From: Asterionella formosa
Taxonomy: Eukaryota
Assembly: GCA_002256025.1 (NCBI GenBank)
Contig: NKIB01014724.1
Location: 1-41,135, forward strand
Length of the DNA: 41,135 bases
Direction of reading: 5' to 3'
Numbering within the stretch: the first letter of the stretch is position 1; each line of letters begins with the position of its first letter. The notes beneath the pieces were generated by a model. That model saw only the letters and a list, made by a program, of their open reading frames with translations, was not told where the DNA came from and did not search any database. The position numbers were made by a program, and so were the translations under genes. Shown here in pieces: positions 1 to 28,000 of the stretch.

Positions 1-392
1 TGTTGATGAGGTTTTAATCCTATTGGATAATCCTACTACCTTGGATAACCATGGACGAGGTCCTTATTCTATTTATTCAAGTATATGCCGATGGTACAGT
101 TACTTTTCAACAAACTATGCATACTACAGAACGAATTAATATCCATTACATCAAACCTTTTCAAAGGTAAAAGGTTTTCCCTTGGTGTGGGAGAGTGAGC
201 GATCTTGCGCATCAATACAGATGTATATAGGGTTAGTGTTATATCATATATGAATAAGAACTCAATAATGAGAGAACTCGACTAACCCTCATTGTATACT
301 TTGGTGTCGACTTGGAGAACGAGTTACACACAAGGATTAACAAATAAGCTCATATATTCAACAAATACTACTACTTCTAGTTAGATACTTCA
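1..392 (+). mobile_element. 3' end of a Ty3/Gypsy LTR retrotransposon: frameshifted integrase C-terminus, polypurine tract and 3' LTR
   Basis: 2-170 translates (one extra T near 72-75) to VDEVLILLDNPTTLDNHGRGPYSI/IQVYADGTVTFQQTMHTTERINIHYIKPFQR*, matching the GPY/F tail of Gypsy integrases. Purine tract GGGAGAG at 189-195 is followed by a TGA...TCA-bounded segment. Confidence 0.75.
196..392 (+). repeat. Putative 3' LTR (~197 bp) of the Gypsy element
   Basis: Starts TGAG directly after the PPT and ends CTTCA, abutting a CCAGGTACCAGGTACC array. The 3' boundary could be 395. The partner LTR lies outside the window. Confidence 0.55.
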
Positions 393-926
393 CCAGGTAC
401 CAGGTACCGCTAGATCAAGATCCGCTCTCCACCCTATCTGCTCAGGATCGATGATACCTGCTACCAGGGTACCGTACATTTGTATGTTTCATCAGAATGA
501 CGCCTGTCCGTCTGGTCCAATTATGGACAAGACAATTGTTGTGTATGGACGAAATGTACCGGTACGATCAGGAATTCATGATGATGTGGACTGTACGTAC
601 AGTTTAGTCCTGATGCATGCGCTCGCGTCAGCGGCCGACTTAGAAACCTACAGGTAGTTAGTACATACTGGTTTTTGTCTGTTCCTTGTTCGGGAGGTCA
701 TTGCTACTGCAGATGCCACGCATCATCGAACACCGTGGCAGTTCAGCAATATGTAATGTCGACCTAGGTCCGGCGTGTGAAGTCATTATTAGCGAAGGGC
801 TGAACACTGGTGTACCTGGTAACAGGTACCTGGTACCCTGGTATGGTACCATCAGTAACCAACCTGAAATACCGGTAGTGCCACTCGTCGCGTAAAATAT
901 TTGATTTCATCTGACCTACCGTCACC

Positions 927-1709
927 ATGAGGTTCCATCGCTCGTCTATGGCGCTTCTGGGCATTGTGACCGGCATAAGGCTTGCTGCTGGATTTGCGCC
1001 TACTAAATTTGGTGTCACCAAGTTGTCGTACAGCATGTTGCAAAATATGAGTGAATGCAAGGAGGAGGAATGCGCCCTTCCAGATGACTTTTTTGATGTC
1101 GCGATTACTTCAGAGAAGAGTTCAGAGAAGAGCGCGATTCTTCGATCTACGGTGTTGTCCAATGTTCAAGGGAAAACCATCCTTCTTGGTGACACAATGG
1201 GACCCGACAAGTCGGTGGTAGTCTTTCTTCGACATCTCGGATGAGTGTTCTGCTGGAGTTATGCCAAGGATTGGTCTCAACTCCGGCCACAAATTGAGGC
1301 AGCAGGTGCTGTCGGTCCTATTTTTGTATCCATTGGAGATCAAGACAAGCTTCTGAAGTTCCTAGAGTTGAATCCATCTATTTCTCGAGACAGCATCTTT
1401 GTGGATGATCTTCAGATGGGCGCCTACACAGCGGTTGGATTTGGATCTATGGAGGATACATTCAAGAATCCTCCGAAGGACCTCAAGCTTAAGACTCCTA
1501 CAATTGGAGGTTTAGGTGCATGGATGAATTACTTGGGAAATGTCATGGAACTTTCTCCTGTTGATCGCAAGACAAAGAACTTTGAGGGAGTCAAACGCCT
1601 TGGAGGAACCTTTGTCGTTGACGGCGATGATGTTATCTACCAATGGAGTGATCGGTTGCCTGGTGACACCCCTGAACTTGTTGATGTCATGAAGTACGTG
1701 ACAGCCTAA
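927..1709 (+). CDS. Peroxiredoxin-like (AhpC/TSA_2; SelU/PRXL2/AAED1-like) selenoprotein, 260 aa, Sec at codon 106 (TGA 1242-1244), probable plastid-targeting presequence
   Basis: ORFs 927-1244 and 1245-1709 are contiguous and in frame across one TGA: VVVFLRHLG-U-VFCWSYA (UxxC). The downstream part has family motifs FVSIG and RLGGTFV...YQWSDRLPGD. SECIS in the 3' UTR. N-terminus has a hydrophobic stretch then AAG-FAP. Confidence 0.9.
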
Positions 1710-1780
1710 TTTTGATGGTGAAAGTGGTTGGTTTTGGGCAGTGTATCTTTTCCTCCCCATGGACTATCAACAATCACAAG

Positions 1781-1844
1781 TGTTTCTGTGAATGACTTCC
1801 TTTGACAAATCATTGCGACATCGAAGGAATGAAGAACAACAACA
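1781..1844 (+). promoter_or_regulatory. Eukaryotic SECIS element in the selenoprotein 3' UTR
   Basis: ATGA 1792-1795, 11 nt spacer, AAA 1807-1809, GA 1831-1832. Upper helix TTCCTTTGA (1797-1805) pairs with TCGAAGGAA (1821-1829) with one G-U. Lower helix TGTTTCT pairs imperfectly with AGAACAACA. Possible apical TC/GA mini-stem. Confidence 0.88.
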
Positions 1845-1947
1845 TTGATCGGGATTTGATTTTCTCATGATCATAAATTACAAGCTCTCTACCCTATTAT
1901 AAATAGTCATCCATTTTGTGGCAGTCTAATCGTCCTGGAAAGTGTGC

Positions 1948-2442
1948 TTACTCTTCCACATCCGCATTATTCTCCTTCGGAAGTTTGAGGCCCGCTAATC
2001 TTGGACGGTATCGTCTCCAAAAGACAACAGGGTCCACGGCGTTCGTACAAATCTTTTTGGTAGCCAGCGCCAGTCGTCGTAGCTCTCGATCACCTGTGAC
2101 AATTTGAACTTCATGGCCTGTAGATCCGGATTCGTAAATAGCCTTGATTTCGCTCAAGATATAGTCGTCAGCGGTCAATCCCTCTTTCGTCGTTATGGTG
2201 GTGAAAGTGTCACTGTTTTCTTCTTTGCTAGTATATCCGCCTTGGGTGCCTTTCTTACCATCCCAGACCAACACTACTTCGGTATTTCGTTGCTGAATCT
2301 CTTGCAATTTTGCTGATATGGCATCTCGATTTTTTGGAATTCCCTTGTGACCGAACATGTTATTACCATCAATGAACCATGTCACACGACGTGAACCCGT
2401 GGCGGCGAAGAGGAACGAAGGAAGGAATGCTAGGAGTTTCAT
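1948..2442 (-). CDS. NYN-domain (YacP/Rae1-like, PIN-fold) ribonuclease with hydrophobic N-terminus
   Basis: Acidic motifs FIDGNN, VVLVWDG, TADDYI and IVTGDREL. First ATG at 2442 (MKLLAFLPSFLFAA). Confidence 0.8.
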   Translation of the reverse strand: MKLLAFLPSFLFAATGSRRVTWFIDGNNMFGHKGIPKNRDAISAKLQEIQQRNTEVVLVWDGKKGTQGGYTSKEENSDTFTTITTKEGLTADDYILSEIKAIYESGSTGHEVQIVTGDRELRRLALATKKICTNAVDPVVFWRRYRPRLAGLKLPKENNADVEE

Positions 2443-2964
2443 GGTGGAATGGATTTTCGACTGGACGAAGAACAAAAACTTGGAAACGAAAAGGCCGAGA
2501 ACATCGGAAGTACCGGTTTACCGTACCGGTAGTACGTATGAAACATCATACCTACTGCAGTGCATATGCATAAAGTATTTTTTTAATGGTACCCCGACCA
2601 TCAAGTTCGTGCGTATACCGGGGGATGCCGTGTCACACTAGACTCCAACTGTCTAAATAATAACAGGACGAGTTGCATCAATTATTCAAATTTCTCCAGT
2701 GCCATTTCACTCCAAGCAAGATTTTCTCCGGCCTACTGTGCACCTTGCTCTTAGCAACAGGTCCATTAATTATATACCGGTATATCACATGCACCATTTC
2801 TGCGTCCAGGGCAATAGAAAATTATTTGTTAAAAAGAATTCTTAGGAGTCTTGTCTTGTTTTAATAGCTAAATTAACATTGTTTCATCATGCCCATCGAG
2901 CAATGAGGAAATGAGGGATAAATTGCTCTCATTTCGATTTTATTTTTAACTCTCAGCAAATCTC

Positions 2965-3012
2965 AGCAGCATTCCAGAATAGCAGCATTCCAGAATAATT
3001 CTGGAATGCTGC
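2965..3012. repeat. 16-bp tandem duplication plus 15-bp perfect inverted repeat
   Basis: AGCAGCATTCCAGAAT twice (2965-2996). GCAGCATTCCAGAAT-A-ATTCTGGAATGCTGC (2982-3012). Confidence 0.9.
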
Positions 3013-6000
3013 CAAGATTCACTTAGAGATGAAGATGTCGAAAATCGCAAATCGCATCGATTGCAGCAGGATTTCAGAGATTCATCGCTCATAGCATGTC
3101 TGTACGTAGAAACCTTCGTAGACTTTGTTCTGCCTCTGATCACAACAAGGTAAAGCTAGTACAGTGAACAATAAAACTTCACCATAAATATTTGGCTTTC
3201 ACACGACATCAATCTCTGCTGGCATCATCATCCTTTTCCTCTATTTGTCATGATTGCTTGGTGTCTTGTCTTTCAGCATCTCACTGCTGGTTGATTGTAT
3301 TTTTGAGGCAGCCGCCTGGGCTGAGGTAATTGTGCACATTGTCCCTGATGTGACAAACAAAGGGAGAAACTTCCAACAGTAATTGATGAGCAGCAGACCA
3401 GATATGGTAATACTTCTTTGTCCACAAGCAAGAATCTCATTCTGTTGTCCATTTTCGTTCCACTTCTTTCTTTTGGAAGCAGCAATAATGACAATGATAT
3501 GAGGAATGGTTTGATTCAAAAGATAGCTTGCGCAATGGAAGTCGAAATATCAAGTTGGAAATCGGCGACCAGACAAGCAAGGAACCAATTGGCAAAGGTT
3601 TGAAACAATACAAAAATCAACAGATAAGCGAGTAATTCTATGTTTAGACGCAGCGATGGAGGACAGTCAAAATGCGATTCTAAGATGGATTGTTGGGCAA
3701 TCAATATTTGGAATGCTAACTACATGCAAATTTCCTAGTGAACTGGCTGGGGGGGGGTATTGTGGTCTATTGTGCTAGAGGGTTATCTCAGTGATCAATT
3801 TTCCAAAATACTAAGCAAGGAGTAGTAACATAAAATACAATAGGAGTTTGTTGAATGGCTCAACTAAAATTTCGATGAGACTTGAAACTTGAAGAAGAAG
3901 AGTCAACTATAGGAAAAACAGGCTAAAACAACAACCCGGCTTTTATAAACATTTGAGTATGGCAAAGGTTGCATGTGATGTATAATTAATTTAATATTGG
4001 CAACTTTGTTACGAAACGACTTTTCTCTTTTAGGCTTTTTTTTGATTTTCACTTTTGCCCATCTAAAGCAAAATACAGATGCATGAGGCAGCCCATGAGG
4101 CAGGACACATTTTCTTTGAACCATATATTCTTAACATGCATACATCATATGAAGTAGGCTACAACAGTAGAACAAAATCCCCTTGTGCTCTATTTTGGAA
4201 TGTGCTACCGCAAAAGTGGCGATGATAGAAAAGAAGAAAATGATGATATGCTTGTTTTGATGTTTGAAACCATTAAATATCTAGTGGTATGGTCCATGTC
4301 AATGTAACAACCGTAGAAAGTATATGTGATGACATGCTTTACCGGTATTTGTTACCTGCAATAGTGTTTGAATGATGGCTGGACGATCATGTAAAATGGC
4401 ATTGGCAATATGGACATGCACCAAATGAGTAGTATATGTATGTTCACGTGGTTTCGAATAATTTATATAGATGCTAATAATTTGATTTCAGAAACATAGT
4501 TTATATTCACTTGTATGTACCAGTAACTCATTTAAAATGCATTTTTAGGAGTCCGCCGACCCTCAAAGAAATTTTTTCTGTTGTCTACGCAATCCTTCCT
4601 AAAGATAGTATGCATCTCCTCTCTGCCTTGAGTAGCTTCAAATCGCTGCAACTATCATTTTCGACCACCAGAGGGTGTACTATATGTAATGAACTCAAAA
4701 GACTAGTCACATGGTGCATTGAGTAACAGGTGCCACCTAAAAACTTACTTCTTTTGCATATATCACATCATCTTGCATTTTCTTCCGTTCCTGAGTGGCA
4801 GCCAGGCAGAATATTGGGTCCAAGTGCAAGCATTTTAGCTGATGCTAGTAGACAAGCAGTGATTCTCTTCTTGTGCCCCTTGAATTTGCTGTTTTGTTTC
4901 ATTTTATTGCTTGCGCTTCCTGGTCAACTCCATTTCAGGTGTCTTCAAATTTTCTGAAGTCATTTATTCTTTCTACAAGTGTACCAGCATTGCCAGTTCG
5001 GATATTCAATTTAGCTGGTGGGAGTGTGTTTGGGCAACAAGCAGGGGAGAAAGTGTGTTCTATATTCACATTTCTGTGTCAATGTTGAAAATGTGGTTTT
5101 TGTTGTTGATATTGAAGGAGTCGCAGTGCGCAGCAGCACCTCCAGCTGTACTACTAGTAGAAGTACTAATCGCATTGAGTGCATATTCAGAGGTAGAGTT
5201 CTGGTTGGCAAGCAAGCAATCTGATCTCTCCCAGAAGTATAGTTCTAAGACACTATAATAATGAAGTTAAATATATATTGAAACACACCAGCACAATCAC
5301 CCACAAATCCATCATGAAATTGGGAGCTACTAAGAACGACAAAGCCTCAAAGGCTGCAAAGAAGAGCAGGATATATTTCAAATAACAGCAAACCCTACAG
5401 ATCATTCTAAACAACATAGTGAGAGAGCTCAAAGTTCAGAAAGCTTACAGTACGTCTAAGACTTGGAGATAAAAATGCTGAATGGTTGCACTCTTTCTGA
5501 AGTTGTCCTTGCTAAACAGAAAATTTTACCTTGGTTAACAATTCATCAATTAAAAAGTGAATTAAAGAAAACTGCACAGTTTGAAGTTATGTCTACTGCT
5601 TTCAATTTCTTGTCAACAGCAACCTTTGGGACTAAATATGGAAGTAACACTACCGGGTAGCTAATTGATGAGTTCAAAGCATGATCATTATTGGTTAGTA
5701 CATAAATTGCTACAACATTGCTTTGAATAATGATGTTTGTATTTAGCATTTCAAGTCCAAAACATGAATGTACTCGATTGAACGTTGAATCTCAGTTCAA
5801 AATCTTCCAAACGTTAATTCTCAGCTCATAGGTGGTACCTGGTACTGTTAAGTGCTGGACTATTATGCATATAGAGGGGTGAGCCGTCCAAATTCATCCA
5901 CGAGTTCATACCCGTACATGCATTAGATATTCTTTTGTTATGTGCTGCCCAATTTCGACATCAAGTGCGTCTGGCATACAAAGGGATTCTGGATTCCGTC

Positions 6001-25000: not shown

Positions 25001-28000
25001 GAGGAAGAAAATATTATCCGAGAATGGGGTGTGTCTCAATCGACGTTGGAAGAAGTCTTTTTGCGACTAGTAAAGCGTGATTCTGCTTCAAATGCTGCGA
25101 CTGTTACATCCTTGATCTCAAATCGGGTAAGAAGCGAGCGGGAACCTGGACAGTCTAATTTTGTCGTTGGTGCCATGGATCCTCCTTTCGAGGAGGGAGA
25201 TATGGAAGCTACCTTTGCGACAAAGCACATCTGGATTCTTCAGGTCCGGTCGTTGATGTGGAAGGCTTTGCTTCTCCAGCGTCGGTCAATAGTTAGCACG
25301 TTTGTCTTTTTTGCCATTCCAGTTGGCCTTTTGCTCCTACTATATTTCGTCGCATTCAAAGACCTAAAGGTGAACAATGAGAACGAAATTCTGATCTACC
25401 CGCAAGCAATTGCTAGTATTGATGTCGATTACTGTACGTTTCATTGGCTAGTTTCCTCTGCGATGCCCGCAGCTCCCGACCCGATGTGGTACCATAGCAC
25501 TCCAATTGGTATTGCTACCGCATTCCAGGTCGGTCAGACGCCTCCAGGATCATCATACGATCACCTTGCCTTGATATGGAGCTTGAGCATCGCCTCAAAC
25601 GTGACTGTGTCTCAAGTCGAAGATGCTATTCAATTTGCTTTTCGCAACGAGCTCAAGCGTGCTCTCAATTCAGTTGATCAAGCCATTGCCGATGCGGAAT
25701 GTAAGGGCGACGTTTGCGGGCCATGCTTCGTCGATCCATTTGCTTTGACTGTTACCATGGAGGACAATGATTTCTTGTTCTCCTTGCCTGGTTCATTTGG
25801 CATCAGGTTACCGCTCTGTCCTTTGTCTGGATCGTATGATGCATGTCCCTTGAATGTCGTTCGTTTTGTGGTTCTTCAGGCATCATTCGCGACGACTGTT
25901 GCTGAACAGCTTGGGACTCTCGTATCACTTATAACAGGGCCGTCGTATGTGTACCCAAATTCGTTCCAGTCAATTCCGAAAGTTAACACAGTAACCAAAT
26001 ATAACTCGTGTTTGTCGTGCGAGGACCATATTTTGCTTTGGCTCTCGGGGAATGGCGCTGGCAGTTTTGCCGAGCTAGTGAATAAAGATGGCACAGAAGC
26101 TGTGGTTACCGAACTTGATGTTCTTGCGGTGGTGCAGGCAAACCGACAAGAATTGGAAAAACGAAATGAAGATATTGACAACATGACTTATTCGGCCTGC
26201 GCATATTTGCAGGACCAGTATGACTATAATGGAGTTGAAAGGGGCTGGATCGTGAACAAGGAAGTCCCAGCTGTGTTACCCACTTCATGGAATTCCTCCG
26301 ACATTTGTGATATTGCGGAGGAAGCACGAAAAGCTTACCAGAGCTTATTTCCAGACGCGGCATTACAAGTATCGTCGTTCGATGTCCTTGGAGACCAGGT
26401 GGCTGTGAACATGGTTGTTGTAATGTTTGAAATGTTATATTATCCAACTATGGGGGTCTACAACCTTAAAGATCAAGCAGTTTTTTCTGTGTATTGCAAT
26501 GAATATGATGCCGACCAAAATGGAACTTGCTTTCCCAATGCCAGCCTAAGCTGCTCCATGATAGTGCCTCCGGCCAGTCAGGTTTGCAGCATACCTGATG
26601 AAGGCCGGTCGCTGCTTATAGAATCTACATACAACTTGCTCCTCAATGCAGCACAAGGCGGAACCCTTCGAGTGAATGAGAAAGCCAAAAGCCTTTACAT
26701 GTTACAGTATGAGCCTGCTCTGAGCCTCCAAGAATTGGCACTGATGGCGTGCTTCTATGCATTGTTCGTGGCCATGTTGATGCCAACCACGAGCAGTACC
26801 ATTGTCCTCGAGAAGCACCAACGCTACGTGTTTTCAATGCTGCTCAATGGGCTTTCGCTGCGCAACTACTGGATTGCCACCTATGTTTTCCATGCAATCA
26901 TGAGTTTGATGGTCGTGGCATTTTCCATTGTGTTTGGTGTGGTATTGCGTCTTAAACCACTTGAGAACCTTTCATATGCATACTTGACACTCATTGTCAT
27001 TACATATATTCATGCGCAGTTTGGCTTTGTTGCCCTGTTTAGTATTTTCTTTTCCAAAGAACGACTCTCTGCCATTGTGTTGAGTCTTGGTAGCATTATC
27101 CTTTTCTGTACAGCGTACATTTTGTTGGCTGTTGTGACCTCGATTTTGAGTCAATGGCCTGGAGCGCTTAGTCTTGTCCCCATGTTGGGGGCATCCCGTG
27201 CCATATTTCTGCTGCTTTGGAAAAGAAACTTTGACGAAGTTCTCAGCATTGCTGGTATTCTCTTTGGTAGTGGCACTCTTTATCTAATGATTGGTATTTA
27301 TGTGCACGGCGCTACCGGTGTTGGTGCACTTTGGAAACCCAATTGCAGTTCCAAAGTGACTGGTGGTACTAAGAAGGACGAAGGCCAAATTGAAACATTG
27401 AATGAGGAAGATGATGAGGAAAGCCATGACTTTGATATTCGACATGAAGCGATTCGAGCCCTTGCCTTGTCACCTGACGAAACAGCCATCAAGATGGCAC
27501 ATTTGGGTAAGGTTTTCCCCGCCCATCCAAATCCGAAATATGCTGTTGTGGATTTGAGCATGGCCATAGACTATGGAGAAATTTTCGGTTTGTTAGGACC
27601 AAATGGAGCTGGTGAGGAATAGTATAGAGTGTGATATGTGTTTGCAAATGCAGAAAATATGACTCACTCTTATTCATCTCGTCACAGGAAAGACAACTGT
27701 CATCTCGATGTTGGTGGGGCAGTTGGATCCCAGTCAAGGTGCTGCATATGTTGGCGGCTTCCATACTGTCGAGCAACGTAAACAGGCATTGAACGAGCTA
27801 GGTATCGTTCCTCAGTTTGATGTGCTCTATCCTGAGTTGAGTGTCAAGGAGCATTTGCAAATGTATGCAGCTGTGAAAGGAGTAGTTCGACAGGAAAATC
27901 TGATGTGGGCTACGCATATTGCCAATAAGGTATCTCTTGCAGGCGAGTTGTTCAATAAACCCTGCAAGAATCTAAGTGGAGGAATGAAGCGACGGTTGTC

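What the first reader, a model, noticed from the sequence alone, without database searches (positions are those of the whole stretch)
927..1844. Hidden selenoprotein: UGA in a UxxC redox motif with a canonical SECIS, split into two ORFs by standard translation
Seen: ORFs 927-1244 and 1245-1709 join in frame across a single TGA, giving RHLG*VFC. The TGA lies where AhpC/TSA_2 (PRXL2/SelU/AAED1-like) proteins carry the first Cys of CxxC. About 82 nt after the TAA is ATGA-N11-AAA...GA with a 9-bp upper helix and a lower helix. Established: this is the eukaryotic signature for selenocysteine insertion, and diatoms use Sec. Inference: one 260-aa selenoenzyme that gene finders would truncate or mis-splice.
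Basis: partly seen in the sequence, partly recalled or inferred. Interest (0 to 1): 0.9.

Follow-up and report, generated by a model that had tools for sequence, protein, structure and literature searches.

The report
Diatom SelU-type selenoprotein gene with SECIS
This is a genuine selenocysteine-containing redox enzyme gene of the SelU/PRXL2 family, whose in-frame TGA makes automatic annotation cut it in two; the family is already known to carry selenocysteine in diatoms, so it is a correct but ordinary find.

Summary
ORFs 927-1244 and 1245-1709 join in frame across one TGA (1242-1244), giving a 260-aa protein with RHLG-U-VFC-W.

- The same column is TGA in 79 of 80 related metagenome or metatranscriptome loci and TGC in one. 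Sequence is conserved on both sides.
- The 3' UTR element at 1780-1846 has AUGA, a 9-bp helix, AAA and GA as described. A covariance model built from homologues' 3' UTRs, without the window, finds it as the only hit in 41 kb (23.6 bits, E 0.0036).
- RNA-library contigs from three studies carry the TGA unchanged and unspliced and cover the SECIS.
- The protein passes Pfam AhpC-TSA_2. Its model is closest to human prostamide/PGF synthase (PRXL2B), and U106/C109 align with that enzyme's C44/C47.

It is not new in kind. Two SelU selenoproteins were reported in Thalassiosira in 2007, and SELENOU is among the most widespread algal selenoproteins. Databases do truncate it: 46 of 76 relatives lack the motif.

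The N-terminus looks like a diatom plastid-targeting presequence. That reading rests on a recalled motif and was not tested with a dedicated predictor.

The parts
927..1709 (+). Single-exon coding sequence of a 260-aa SelU/PRXL2-like selenoprotein (stop TAA 1707-1709)
   Evidence: Translation with TGA=U. Pfam PF13911 scores 28.1 bits against a cut-off of 27. RNA contig X2 is colinear over 766-2441. 76 homologues were found.
927..995 (+). Presequence: signal-peptide-like hydrophobic core (residues 9-17) ending ...LAAG|FAP, with Phe23 at 993-995. Read as a diatom plastid-targeting (ASAFAP-type) motif, which is recalled
   Evidence: Hydropathy is 2.3 at residues 9-17. A hydrophobic core followed by [AGSP]F occurs in 46 of 47 distinct complete N-termini of homologous loci. 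Shuffles give a mean of 21.8 and a maximum of 29 of 47. Model pLDDT is below 55 for residues 1-60.
1242..1244 (+). TGA read as selenocysteine 106, the first position of U-V-F-C
   Evidence: TGA at the same column in 79 of 80 related loci and TGC in L027. No variant in RNA contigs. It sits between strand 95-103 and helix 107-118 of the model. It aligns with C44 of human PGFS.
1251..1253 (+). TGC, Cys109, the second (resolving) residue of UxxC
   Evidence: Conserved C in xxC in all 80 loci. Aligns with C47 of human PGFS.
1710..1920 (+). 3' UTR, minimum extent; the true end was not determined
   Evidence: The related contig L001 aligns to window 1920, where it ends. RNA contigs X7 (to 1896), X5 and X2 cover it, but X5 and X2 run on into the convergent gene.
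1780..1846 (+). SECIS element: lower helix 1787-1789/1836-1838, AUGA 1792-1795, helix 2 1797-1805/1821-1829, AAA 1807-1809, GA 1831-1832
   Evidence: Sequence and MFE shape. Model R1 scores 35.1 bits. The leave-out model R2 scores 23.6 bits, E 0.0036, and this is its only hit in the window. Covariation in the homologues' elements.

Best explanation
Window 927-1709 (+) is one intron-less nuclear gene of a diatom-like alga. It encodes a 260-aa selenoprotein of the SelU/SELENOU (PRXL2, Pfam AhpC-TSA_2) family.

Inferred from the established eukaryotic mechanism: the SECIS stem-loop in the 3' UTR (1780-1846) recruits SBP2 and eEFSec with Sec-tRNA[Ser]Sec to the translating ribosome. UGA 1242-1244 is then decoded as selenocysteine instead of terminating.

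Shown by the model and alignment: Sec106 sits at the N-terminal end of the first helix of a peroxiredoxin-like thioredoxin fold, in a U-x-x-C motif. This is the position of the catalytic CxxC of human prostamide/PGF synthase.

Inferred chemistry: the selenolate attacks an oxidised substrate (a peroxide, endoperoxide or disulfide), forms a selenenylsulfide with Cys109, and is re-reduced by a thioredoxin- or glutathione-type system.

Inferred from a recalled motif: the N-terminal presequence (signal peptide, then Phe at the predicted cleavage site) suggests the enzyme works in the complex plastid.
For: **1. TGA at the column.** The reading frame is continuous across a single TGA. Of 80 related loci kept from 250 confirmed relatives, 79 have TGA and 1 has TGC at this codon, with FLRH[LM]G before and xxCW after. 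Many loci are near-duplicates, so these are not 80 independent events.

**2. Coding constraint.** Against the closest relative L001, all 8 differences downstream of the TGA are at third codon positions. The upstream part differs at 11 sites and by an in-frame 12-nt indel. The TGA is identical.

**3. SECIS.**
- A core (G)UGA-AUGA-CG...CUGA recurs 30-190 nt after the stop in the homologues.
- A helix-constrained finder hits 51 of 80 real UTRs and 13 of 80 shuffled ones.
- On the 29-sequence alignment, 87.4% of cells pair. The lower helix, which was not selected for, pairs in 78% of cells with both-side changes in 3 of 3 pairs.
- Model R1 finds an element in 38 of 52 non-seed loci (24 at E<=0.01). 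All are on the + strand and downstream of the stop. It finds none in the Cys-form locus L027, whose 234-nt UTR has no ATGA.
- Leave-out model R2 finds window 1780-1846 as its only hit.

**4. RNA.** Contigs X2 (766-2441), X5 (909-1406) and X7 (1163-1896), from three studies, bridge the TGA with no other letter and no joint.

**5. Family.**
- PF13911 scores 28.1 bits against a gathering score of 27.
- The AF2 model has pLDDT 81.6.
- The Foldseek top three are human PGFS, at E 1.4e-6 to 2.1e-5.
- The best VIA Z is 18.8 to 9usa.
- The profile alignment puts U106/C109 on C44/C47.

**6. Print.** Diatoms have tRNA-Sec and 16 selenoproteins including two SelU (PMC2375036, passages). SELENOU Sec forms occur in more than half of 36 algal genomes (PMC7539508, passages).
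Against: - No Rfam SECIS family matches the window at E<=10. The same models also miss all 20 homologue loci tried, so this says little.
- The SECIS fold is no more stable than shuffles (z 0.03).
- The seeds for the SECIS models were picked by my own finder, which demanded ATGA, GA and four closing pairs, so those pairs are paired by construction. 11 of the 38 R2 seeds were found with R1, which contained the window, so the leave-out is not perfectly clean.
- The Pfam score is only 1.1 bits above threshold. The sequence match to PGFS is weak (E 0.15), and its structural lead over ordinary peroxiredoxins is small (Z 18.8 against 17.5).
- No genome is held, so Sec machinery in this organism is unverified. 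There is no tRNA gene in the window.
- RNA evidence is contigs only. They show neither strand nor the 3' end, and they could in principle contain DNA.
- No selenium incorporation data exist.
Confidence: 0.93

Rival explanations
1. The TGA is an ordinary stop. Either the locus encodes a 105-aa N-terminal product and the downstream 154-aa ORF is translated separately, or it is a decaying pseudogene.
For: Standard translation gives exactly these two ORFs. Public databases hold the 154-aa ORF as a protein (P0001).
Against: - TGA is kept at the same codon in 79 of 80 loci, with conservation on both sides.
- The active-site strand lies upstream of the TGA and the helix downstream, in one folded domain.
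- All 8 changes downstream relative to L001 are at third positions, so the region is under constraint.
- Cys forms are uninterrupted (L027; 18 database proteins).
Confidence: 0.02
2. The UGA is read through as another residue (Trp or Cys by near-cognate tRNA, or a deviant nuclear code) without selenium.
For: 11 of 76 database relatives show W at the column. No Sec machinery could be checked.
Against: - The one W protein that could be traced (P0008 = L036) has TGA, so W is a gene-caller reading.
- A conserved SECIS-type element accompanies the TGA forms and is absent from the TGC form L027.
- Trp at a catalytic CxxC position is implausible (established chemistry).
- Sec use in diatoms is documented.
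Confidence: 0.03
3. The TGA is an assembly or sequencing error for TGC/TGT, or it lies in an unrecognised intron.
For: None found.
Against: RNA-library contigs of X2, X5 and X7 all read TGA. No joint skips it, and contig X2 is colinear over 766-2441. The independent contig L001 has TGA.
Confidence: 0.01

Closest known systems
Selenoprotein U (SelU / SELENOU; Cys paralogues PRXL2A, PRXL2C, PRXL2B in humans), Pfam AhpC-TSA_2 PF13911
   Same: - Same Pfam family.
- Sec or Cys as the first residue of a CxxC-type motif on a peroxiredoxin-like thioredoxin fold.
- A mix of Sec and Cys forms among relatives.
- Sec forms reported in diatoms (two in T. pseudonana) and most algae.
- The naming SELENOU1/2/3 = PRXL2A/C/B comes from PMC13134290 (passages).
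   Different: - Very divergent from animal members: profile E 0.15 to PGFS, and 19-24% identity in structural alignments.
- It carries an N-terminal presequence of about 60-70 residues.
- Orthology to SELENOU1, 2 or 3, or to either published T. pseudonana SelU, was not tested.
Human prostamide/prostaglandin F synthase (PRXL2B), PDB 9us9 / 9usa
   Same: Best structural match: Foldseek E 1.4e-6 and TM 0.74-0.83 on the target; VIA Z 18.8, rmsd 2.3 over 158 of 163 residues. The CxxC (C44/C47) aligns with U106/C109.
   Different: It has Cys, not Sec, and no presequence. Its substrate (PGH2/prostamide H2) is not expected in a diatom. Ordinary peroxiredoxins score nearly as high (Bcp4 Z 17.5), so the fold does not fix the substrate.
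AhpC_b, an algal UxxC selenoprotein described in Thalassiosira oceanica (PMC7539508)
   Same: UxxC motif, antioxidant-type thioredoxin fold, diatom host (passages).
   Different: AhpC_b is described as carrying the AhpC_TSA domain, with only prokaryotic Cys homologues. The window protein hits only PF13911 at E<=0.01 and has many eukaryote-type relatives with presequences. No AhpC_b sequence was available for a direct comparison.
Canonical eukaryotic SECIS element (Rfam SECIS families; SECISearch consensus)
   Same: AUGA / GA quartet, helix 2 of 9 bp, unpaired AAA 11 nt after AUGA, a lower helix, and a 3' UTR location.
   Different: Not recognised by any Rfam model at E<=10, and neither are 20 homologues' elements. 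The family shares a lineage-typical extended core, (G)UGA-AUGA-CG ... CUGA.

Membership tests
Eukaryotic selenoprotein gene | In-frame UGA aligned with Sec or Cys in homologues | tested here: met
   79 TGA and 1 TGC of 80 loci. 18 C of 76 database proteins.
Eukaryotic selenoprotein gene | Protein conservation continues on both sides of the UGA | tested here: met
   The alignment has R73, G82, L87, G88, S96, L101, R102 and H103 upstream and W110, Y112 and W116 downstream nearly invariant. The codon-position pattern agrees.
Eukaryotic selenoprotein gene | SECIS element in the 3' UTR (AUGA...GA quartet, helices, unpaired AA) | tested here: met
   Anatomy. Covariation in homologues. Leave-out model hit E 0.0036, the only hit in the window. 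Rfam SECIS models give no hit, but they also give 0 of 20 on homologues. SECISearch3 was not available.
Eukaryotic selenoprotein gene | mRNA keeps the UGA and reaches the SECIS | tested here: met
   Contigs of RNA libraries X2, X5 and X7. These are contigs only, so strand and 3' end are unknown.
Eukaryotic selenoprotein gene | Sec machinery in the same genome (tRNA-Sec, SBP2, eEFSec, PSTK, SepSecS, SPS2) | not testable with these tools
   No genome is held for the window, and there is no tRNA in the window. The machinery is known in the diatom T. pseudonana.
Eukaryotic selenoprotein gene | Selenium actually incorporated | not testable with these tools
   Needs 75Se labelling or mass spectrometry.
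SelU / SELENOU / PRXL2 (Pfam PF13911) | Score at or above Pfam's gathering threshold | tested here: met
   28.1 bits against 27, E 2.7e-6, residues 118-243. This is marginal. PF13911 is also precomputed for many relatives.
SelU / SELENOU / PRXL2 (Pfam PF13911) | Peroxiredoxin-like thioredoxin fold, closest to a solved PRXL2 member | tested here: met
   PGFS takes ranks 1-3 in Foldseek and has the top VIA Z of 18.8. The lead over Bcp4 (17.5) is small.
SelU / SELENOU / PRXL2 (Pfam PF13911) | Sec/Cys at the first position of the catalytic CxxC | tested here: met
   FLRHLg-C-ty-C-W aligns with GLRRFG-C44-VV-C47-R of 9us9_A. That the SelU motif is UxxC is recalled.
SelU / SELENOU / PRXL2 (Pfam PF13911) | Orthology to a named subfamily (SELENOU1/2/3, or the two T. 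pseudonana SelU genes) | not tested
AhpC_b (algal UxxC selenoprotein) | AhpC_TSA (PF00578) domain | tested here: not met
   Only PF13911 is listed at E<=0.01.
Diatom plastid-targeted proteins (bipartite presequence) | Signal peptide followed by Phe at +1 of the cleavage site (ASAFAP-type motif; recalled definition) | tested here: inconclusive
   ...GIRLAAG|FAPT in the window. The core-then-[AGSP]F pattern is in 46 of 47 N-termini, against a shuffled mean of 21.8. No SignalP or ASAFind was available, and there is no localisation data.

The most novel reading that the evidence does not exclude
The whole Sec-containing clade is a plastid-resident SelU. On this reading a selenoprotein made on cytosolic or ER-bound ribosomes is imported across the four membranes of the diatom plastid, which would make part of plastid redox defence depend on selenium supply. 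The conserved presequence (hydrophobic core, then Phe) in 46 of 47 distinct N-termini supports it. I found no statement of it in print. Search one search returned one paper, unrelated by its title. The words plastid and chloroplast occur 0 times in PMC7539508. In PMC2375036 plastid occurs 0 times and chloroplast twice, in a passage on red-alga cell anatomy.
Probability: 0.55. Interest if true: 0.4.

Novelty: new member of a known kind. Interest (0 to 1): 0.3.

Why it matters
This is a clean, well-supported case of a selenoprotein gene that standard pipelines break. The database copy is the 154-aa tail, and 46 of 76 relatives are truncated while 11 show a spurious Trp. Correct annotation restores the catalytic residue.

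The set of about 66 homologous 3' UTR elements, with its shared (G)UGA-AUGA-CG...CUGA core that Rfam models miss, could seed a better SECIS model for stramenopile algae.

If the plastid presequence is real, it links selenium supply to plastid redox chemistry in diatoms.

The biology is otherwise expected. SelU selenoproteins in diatoms have been published since 2007.

Tried and rejected
- Rfam scans of window 1-6000 and 1700-1950 at E<=10 gave no SECIS family. The same scan on 20 homologue loci also gave none, so I treat the Rfam negative as insensitivity, not absence.
- My first strict SECIS finder (unbroken helix of at least 6 bp plus AA at 9-13) found only 16 of 80. A version demanding unpaired AA in the MFE found fewer. 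Both were too strict and were replaced and then superseded by covariance models.
- The whole-genome search failed because no genome is held.
- Earlier findings were not open.
- A sequence-only PDB search gave just one weak hit (E 0.15), so fold comparison was needed.
- A literature search for AAED1 in the chloroplast returned two unrelated papers by title.
- The CM hit at window 25862-25898 (-) scores 12.3 bits, E 0.94, with only a 1-nt insert where the hairpin should be. I rejected it as a SECIS.
- Parts of the stretch without RNA-contig cover in X5, X7 or X8 are not interpreted.

Full report
**Observation**

The sequence shows ATG at 927 and a TGA at 1242-1244 that joins ORF 927-1244 to ORF 1245-1709 in frame, with TAA at 1707-1709. 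Read with TGA=U, the product is 260 aa with the motif FLRHLG-U-VFC-W.

Eighty-two nt after the TAA lies ATGA (1792-1795), and eleven nt further is AAA (1807-1809). A 9-bp helix pairs 1797-1805 with 1821-1829. GA is at 1831-1832, and a lower helix pairs 1787-1789 with 1836-1838. The RNAfold minimum-energy structure has the same shape. Its energy is no better than shuffles (z 0.03), so the fold alone proves nothing.

**Is the TGA a coding position?**

A search of 5.8 billion proteins gave 76 relatives. I aligned the window protein with 33 of them, the long ones. Upstream residues (R73, G82, L87, G88, S96, L101-H103) and downstream residues (W110, Y112, W116 and others) are nearly invariant.

Over all 76 relatives:

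| Residue at the column | Proteins |
|---|---|
| Motif missing (most start just after it or at a later Met; P0049, a Fistulifera solaris model, skips it) | 46 |
| C | 18 |
| W | 11 |
| D | 1 |

One W protein (P0008) matches locus L036 exactly, and the codon there is TGA.

At the DNA level, a metagenome scan found 250 confirmed relatives, of which 80 loci were kept. 78 had TGA and one (L027) had TGC in my first count. The locus my regex missed (L034, PYCS instead of PYCW) also has TGA. So 79 of 80 have TGA. Several loci are near-identical, so these are not independent counts.

Against the closest relative, L001, the 8 differences downstream of the TGA are all third-position. Upstream there are 11 differences (6, 2 and 3 by codon position) and a 12-nt in-frame indel at 1109-1120. 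This fits a less constrained presequence.

**SECIS**

The homologues' 3' UTRs are otherwise unalignable, but they share a core (G)TGA-ATGA-CG ... CTGA 30-190 nt after the stop. A finder that demands ATGA, GA and four closing pairs hit 51 of 80 real UTRs (79 loci plus the window) against 13 of 80 shuffled ones. At energy of -8 kcal/mol or lower it hit 37 against 4.

On a 29-sequence alignment (A2), RNAalifold and my pair counts show changes on both sides in all 10 pairs and 87.4% of cells paired, against about 38-45% when the partner is slid. The first four pairs of the upper helix are paired by my selection. Three things were not selected for:
- the lower helix (78% paired, both-side changes in 3 of 3 pairs);
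- pairs 5-7 of the upper helix;
- the conserved letters around AUGA and GA.

Covariance model R1, built from A2, found an element in 38 of the 52 loci not used as seeds (24 at E<=0.01). Every best hit is on the coding strand and downstream of the stop. It found none in the Cys-form locus L027, whose UTR has no ATGA at all.

Model R2 was built from 38 elements, none from the window or L001. 27 were picked by my finder and 11 by R1, so there is a slight leak. R2 finds window 1780-1846 (+) at 23.6 bits, E 0.0036, as the only match at E<=10 in 41,135 bases on both strands.

Rfam's SECIS families match neither the window nor any of 20 homologue loci.

**Transcripts**

Twenty public runs hold part of window 800-2000, and 19 are on record as RNA. 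I laid contigs of four runs from four studies.

| Run | Library | Window cover | Bridges 1242-1244? |
|---|---|---|---|
| X2 | poly(A) metatranscriptome | one contig, colinear over 766-2441 | yes |
| X5 | poly(A) | 909-1406 and 1410-2439 | yes |
| X7 | metatranscriptome | 1163-1896 | yes |
| X8 | metatranscriptome | a contig starting at 1242 | no |

No run shows another letter at 1242-1244, and no joint skips it. The SECIS is covered in X2, X5 and X7.

These are contigs. They do not give strand, abundance or the poly(A) site, and X2 and X5 run on into the convergent neighbour. L001 ends at window 1920.

**Family and mechanism**

Pfam gives AhpC-TSA_2 (PF13911) at 28.1 bits, with a gathering score of 27.

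An AlphaFold2 model built from the 34-row alignment has mean pLDDT 81.6. Residues 1-60 are disordered. Strand 95-103 and helix 107-118 flank U106, which is the classical thioredoxin-fold active-site position.

Foldseek ranks human prostamide/PGF synthase (PRXL2B; 9usa, 9us9) first to third, at E 1.4e-6 to 2.1e-5. VIA-align gives 9usa Z 18.8 (rmsd 2.3, 158 aligned). Bcp4 follows at 17.5 and peroxiredoxins at 15-16.

A profile search of PDB sequences finds only PGFS (E 0.15). It aligns U106/C109 with C44/C47, the pair mutated in entry 9usa.

SELENOU1/2/3 are PRXL2A/C/B (PMC13134290, passages).

I infer a selenol/thiol oxidoreductase or peroxidase cycle: Sec106 acts as nucleophile, a Se-S bond forms with Cys109, and the enzyme is re-reduced by thioredoxin or glutathione. 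Its substrate is unknown.

A tree of 31 rows puts the window in a well-supported 6-row clade (5 Sec, 1 with D), apart from a 25-row clade that holds further Sec forms and a 15-row all-Cys clade (100/100). I dropped three rows that lack the motif. The tree needs at least three Sec/Cys changes.

**Location**

The N-terminus is MRFHRSSMALLGIVTGIRLAAG|FAPT. It has a hydrophobic core followed by Phe.

The same pattern occurs in 46 of 47 distinct complete N-termini of the homologous loci. Shuffled sequences give a mean of 21.8 and a maximum of 29 of 47 in 200 shuffles, under a loose regex. 26 loci had incomplete 5' ends and were left out.

From memory, this is the ASAFAP-type signature of proteins imported into diatom plastids. 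No predictor was available, so this stays an inference.

**What is known**

Lobanov et al. 2007 (PMC2375036; abstract and passages read) report 16 selenoproteins in Thalassiosira pseudonana, including two SelU, and a sequenced tRNA-Sec.

Jiang et al. 2020 (PMC7539508; passages read) report 20-44 selenoprotein genes per diatom, with Sec-containing SELENOU in more than half of 36 algal genomes.

The kind is therefore known. This is another member, unannotated or truncated in public protein sets.

**Verdict**

Novelty is low (a new member of a known kind). The probable plastid address and the lineage-typical SECIS core that Rfam does not model add modest interest.

Noticed in passing
window 637-765: A poly(A) metatranscriptome contig (X2) joins 636 directly to 766, skipping 129 nt with non-canonical ends (GA..CT). 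A contig of another run (X7) carries 637-769 between unlike flanks. This looks like a small repeated or mobile insertion that is polymorphic between strains rather than an intron.
   Followed up: no
window 2938-3073, core 2953-3024 (either strand): A long near-perfect hairpin, with arms of about 27 nt around a short loop, draws several sub-threshold Rfam miRNA-precursor matches. The best is MIR868 at 33.1 bits against a gathering score of 200, E 0.0012. It is probably just an inverted repeat.
   Followed up: no
window 1948-2475 (-): A convergent neighbour gene encodes a 175-aa YacP-like NYN-domain protein (PF05991, E 6.7e-9). Its stop lies 238 nt from the selenoprotein's stop, and RNA contigs run across both genes. 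The two 3' UTRs may overlap around the SECIS.
   Followed up: partly
L001-L080 (terminal stop codons of the homologous genes): The genes end in TAA (52), TAG (27) or TGA (1, L068) of 80. TGA as the true stop seems avoided in these SECIS-bearing mRNAs. No background stop usage was measured, and many loci are near-duplicates.
   Followed up: no
window 1109-1120: A 12-nt in-frame indel relative to the 95%-identical contig L001, inside a repeated SEKS/SEK stretch of the presequence.
   Followed up: no
P0005 (database relative, 205 aa): The nearest tree neighbour of the window protein has D and S in place of U and C (HLG-D-PY-S-W). It is either a redox-dead derivative or a sequence error.
   Followed up: no
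window 25862-25898 (-): A weak covariance-model match (12.3 bits, E 0.94) with GAATGA...CTGA but almost no hairpin between them. It is not a credible SECIS.
   Followed up: partly
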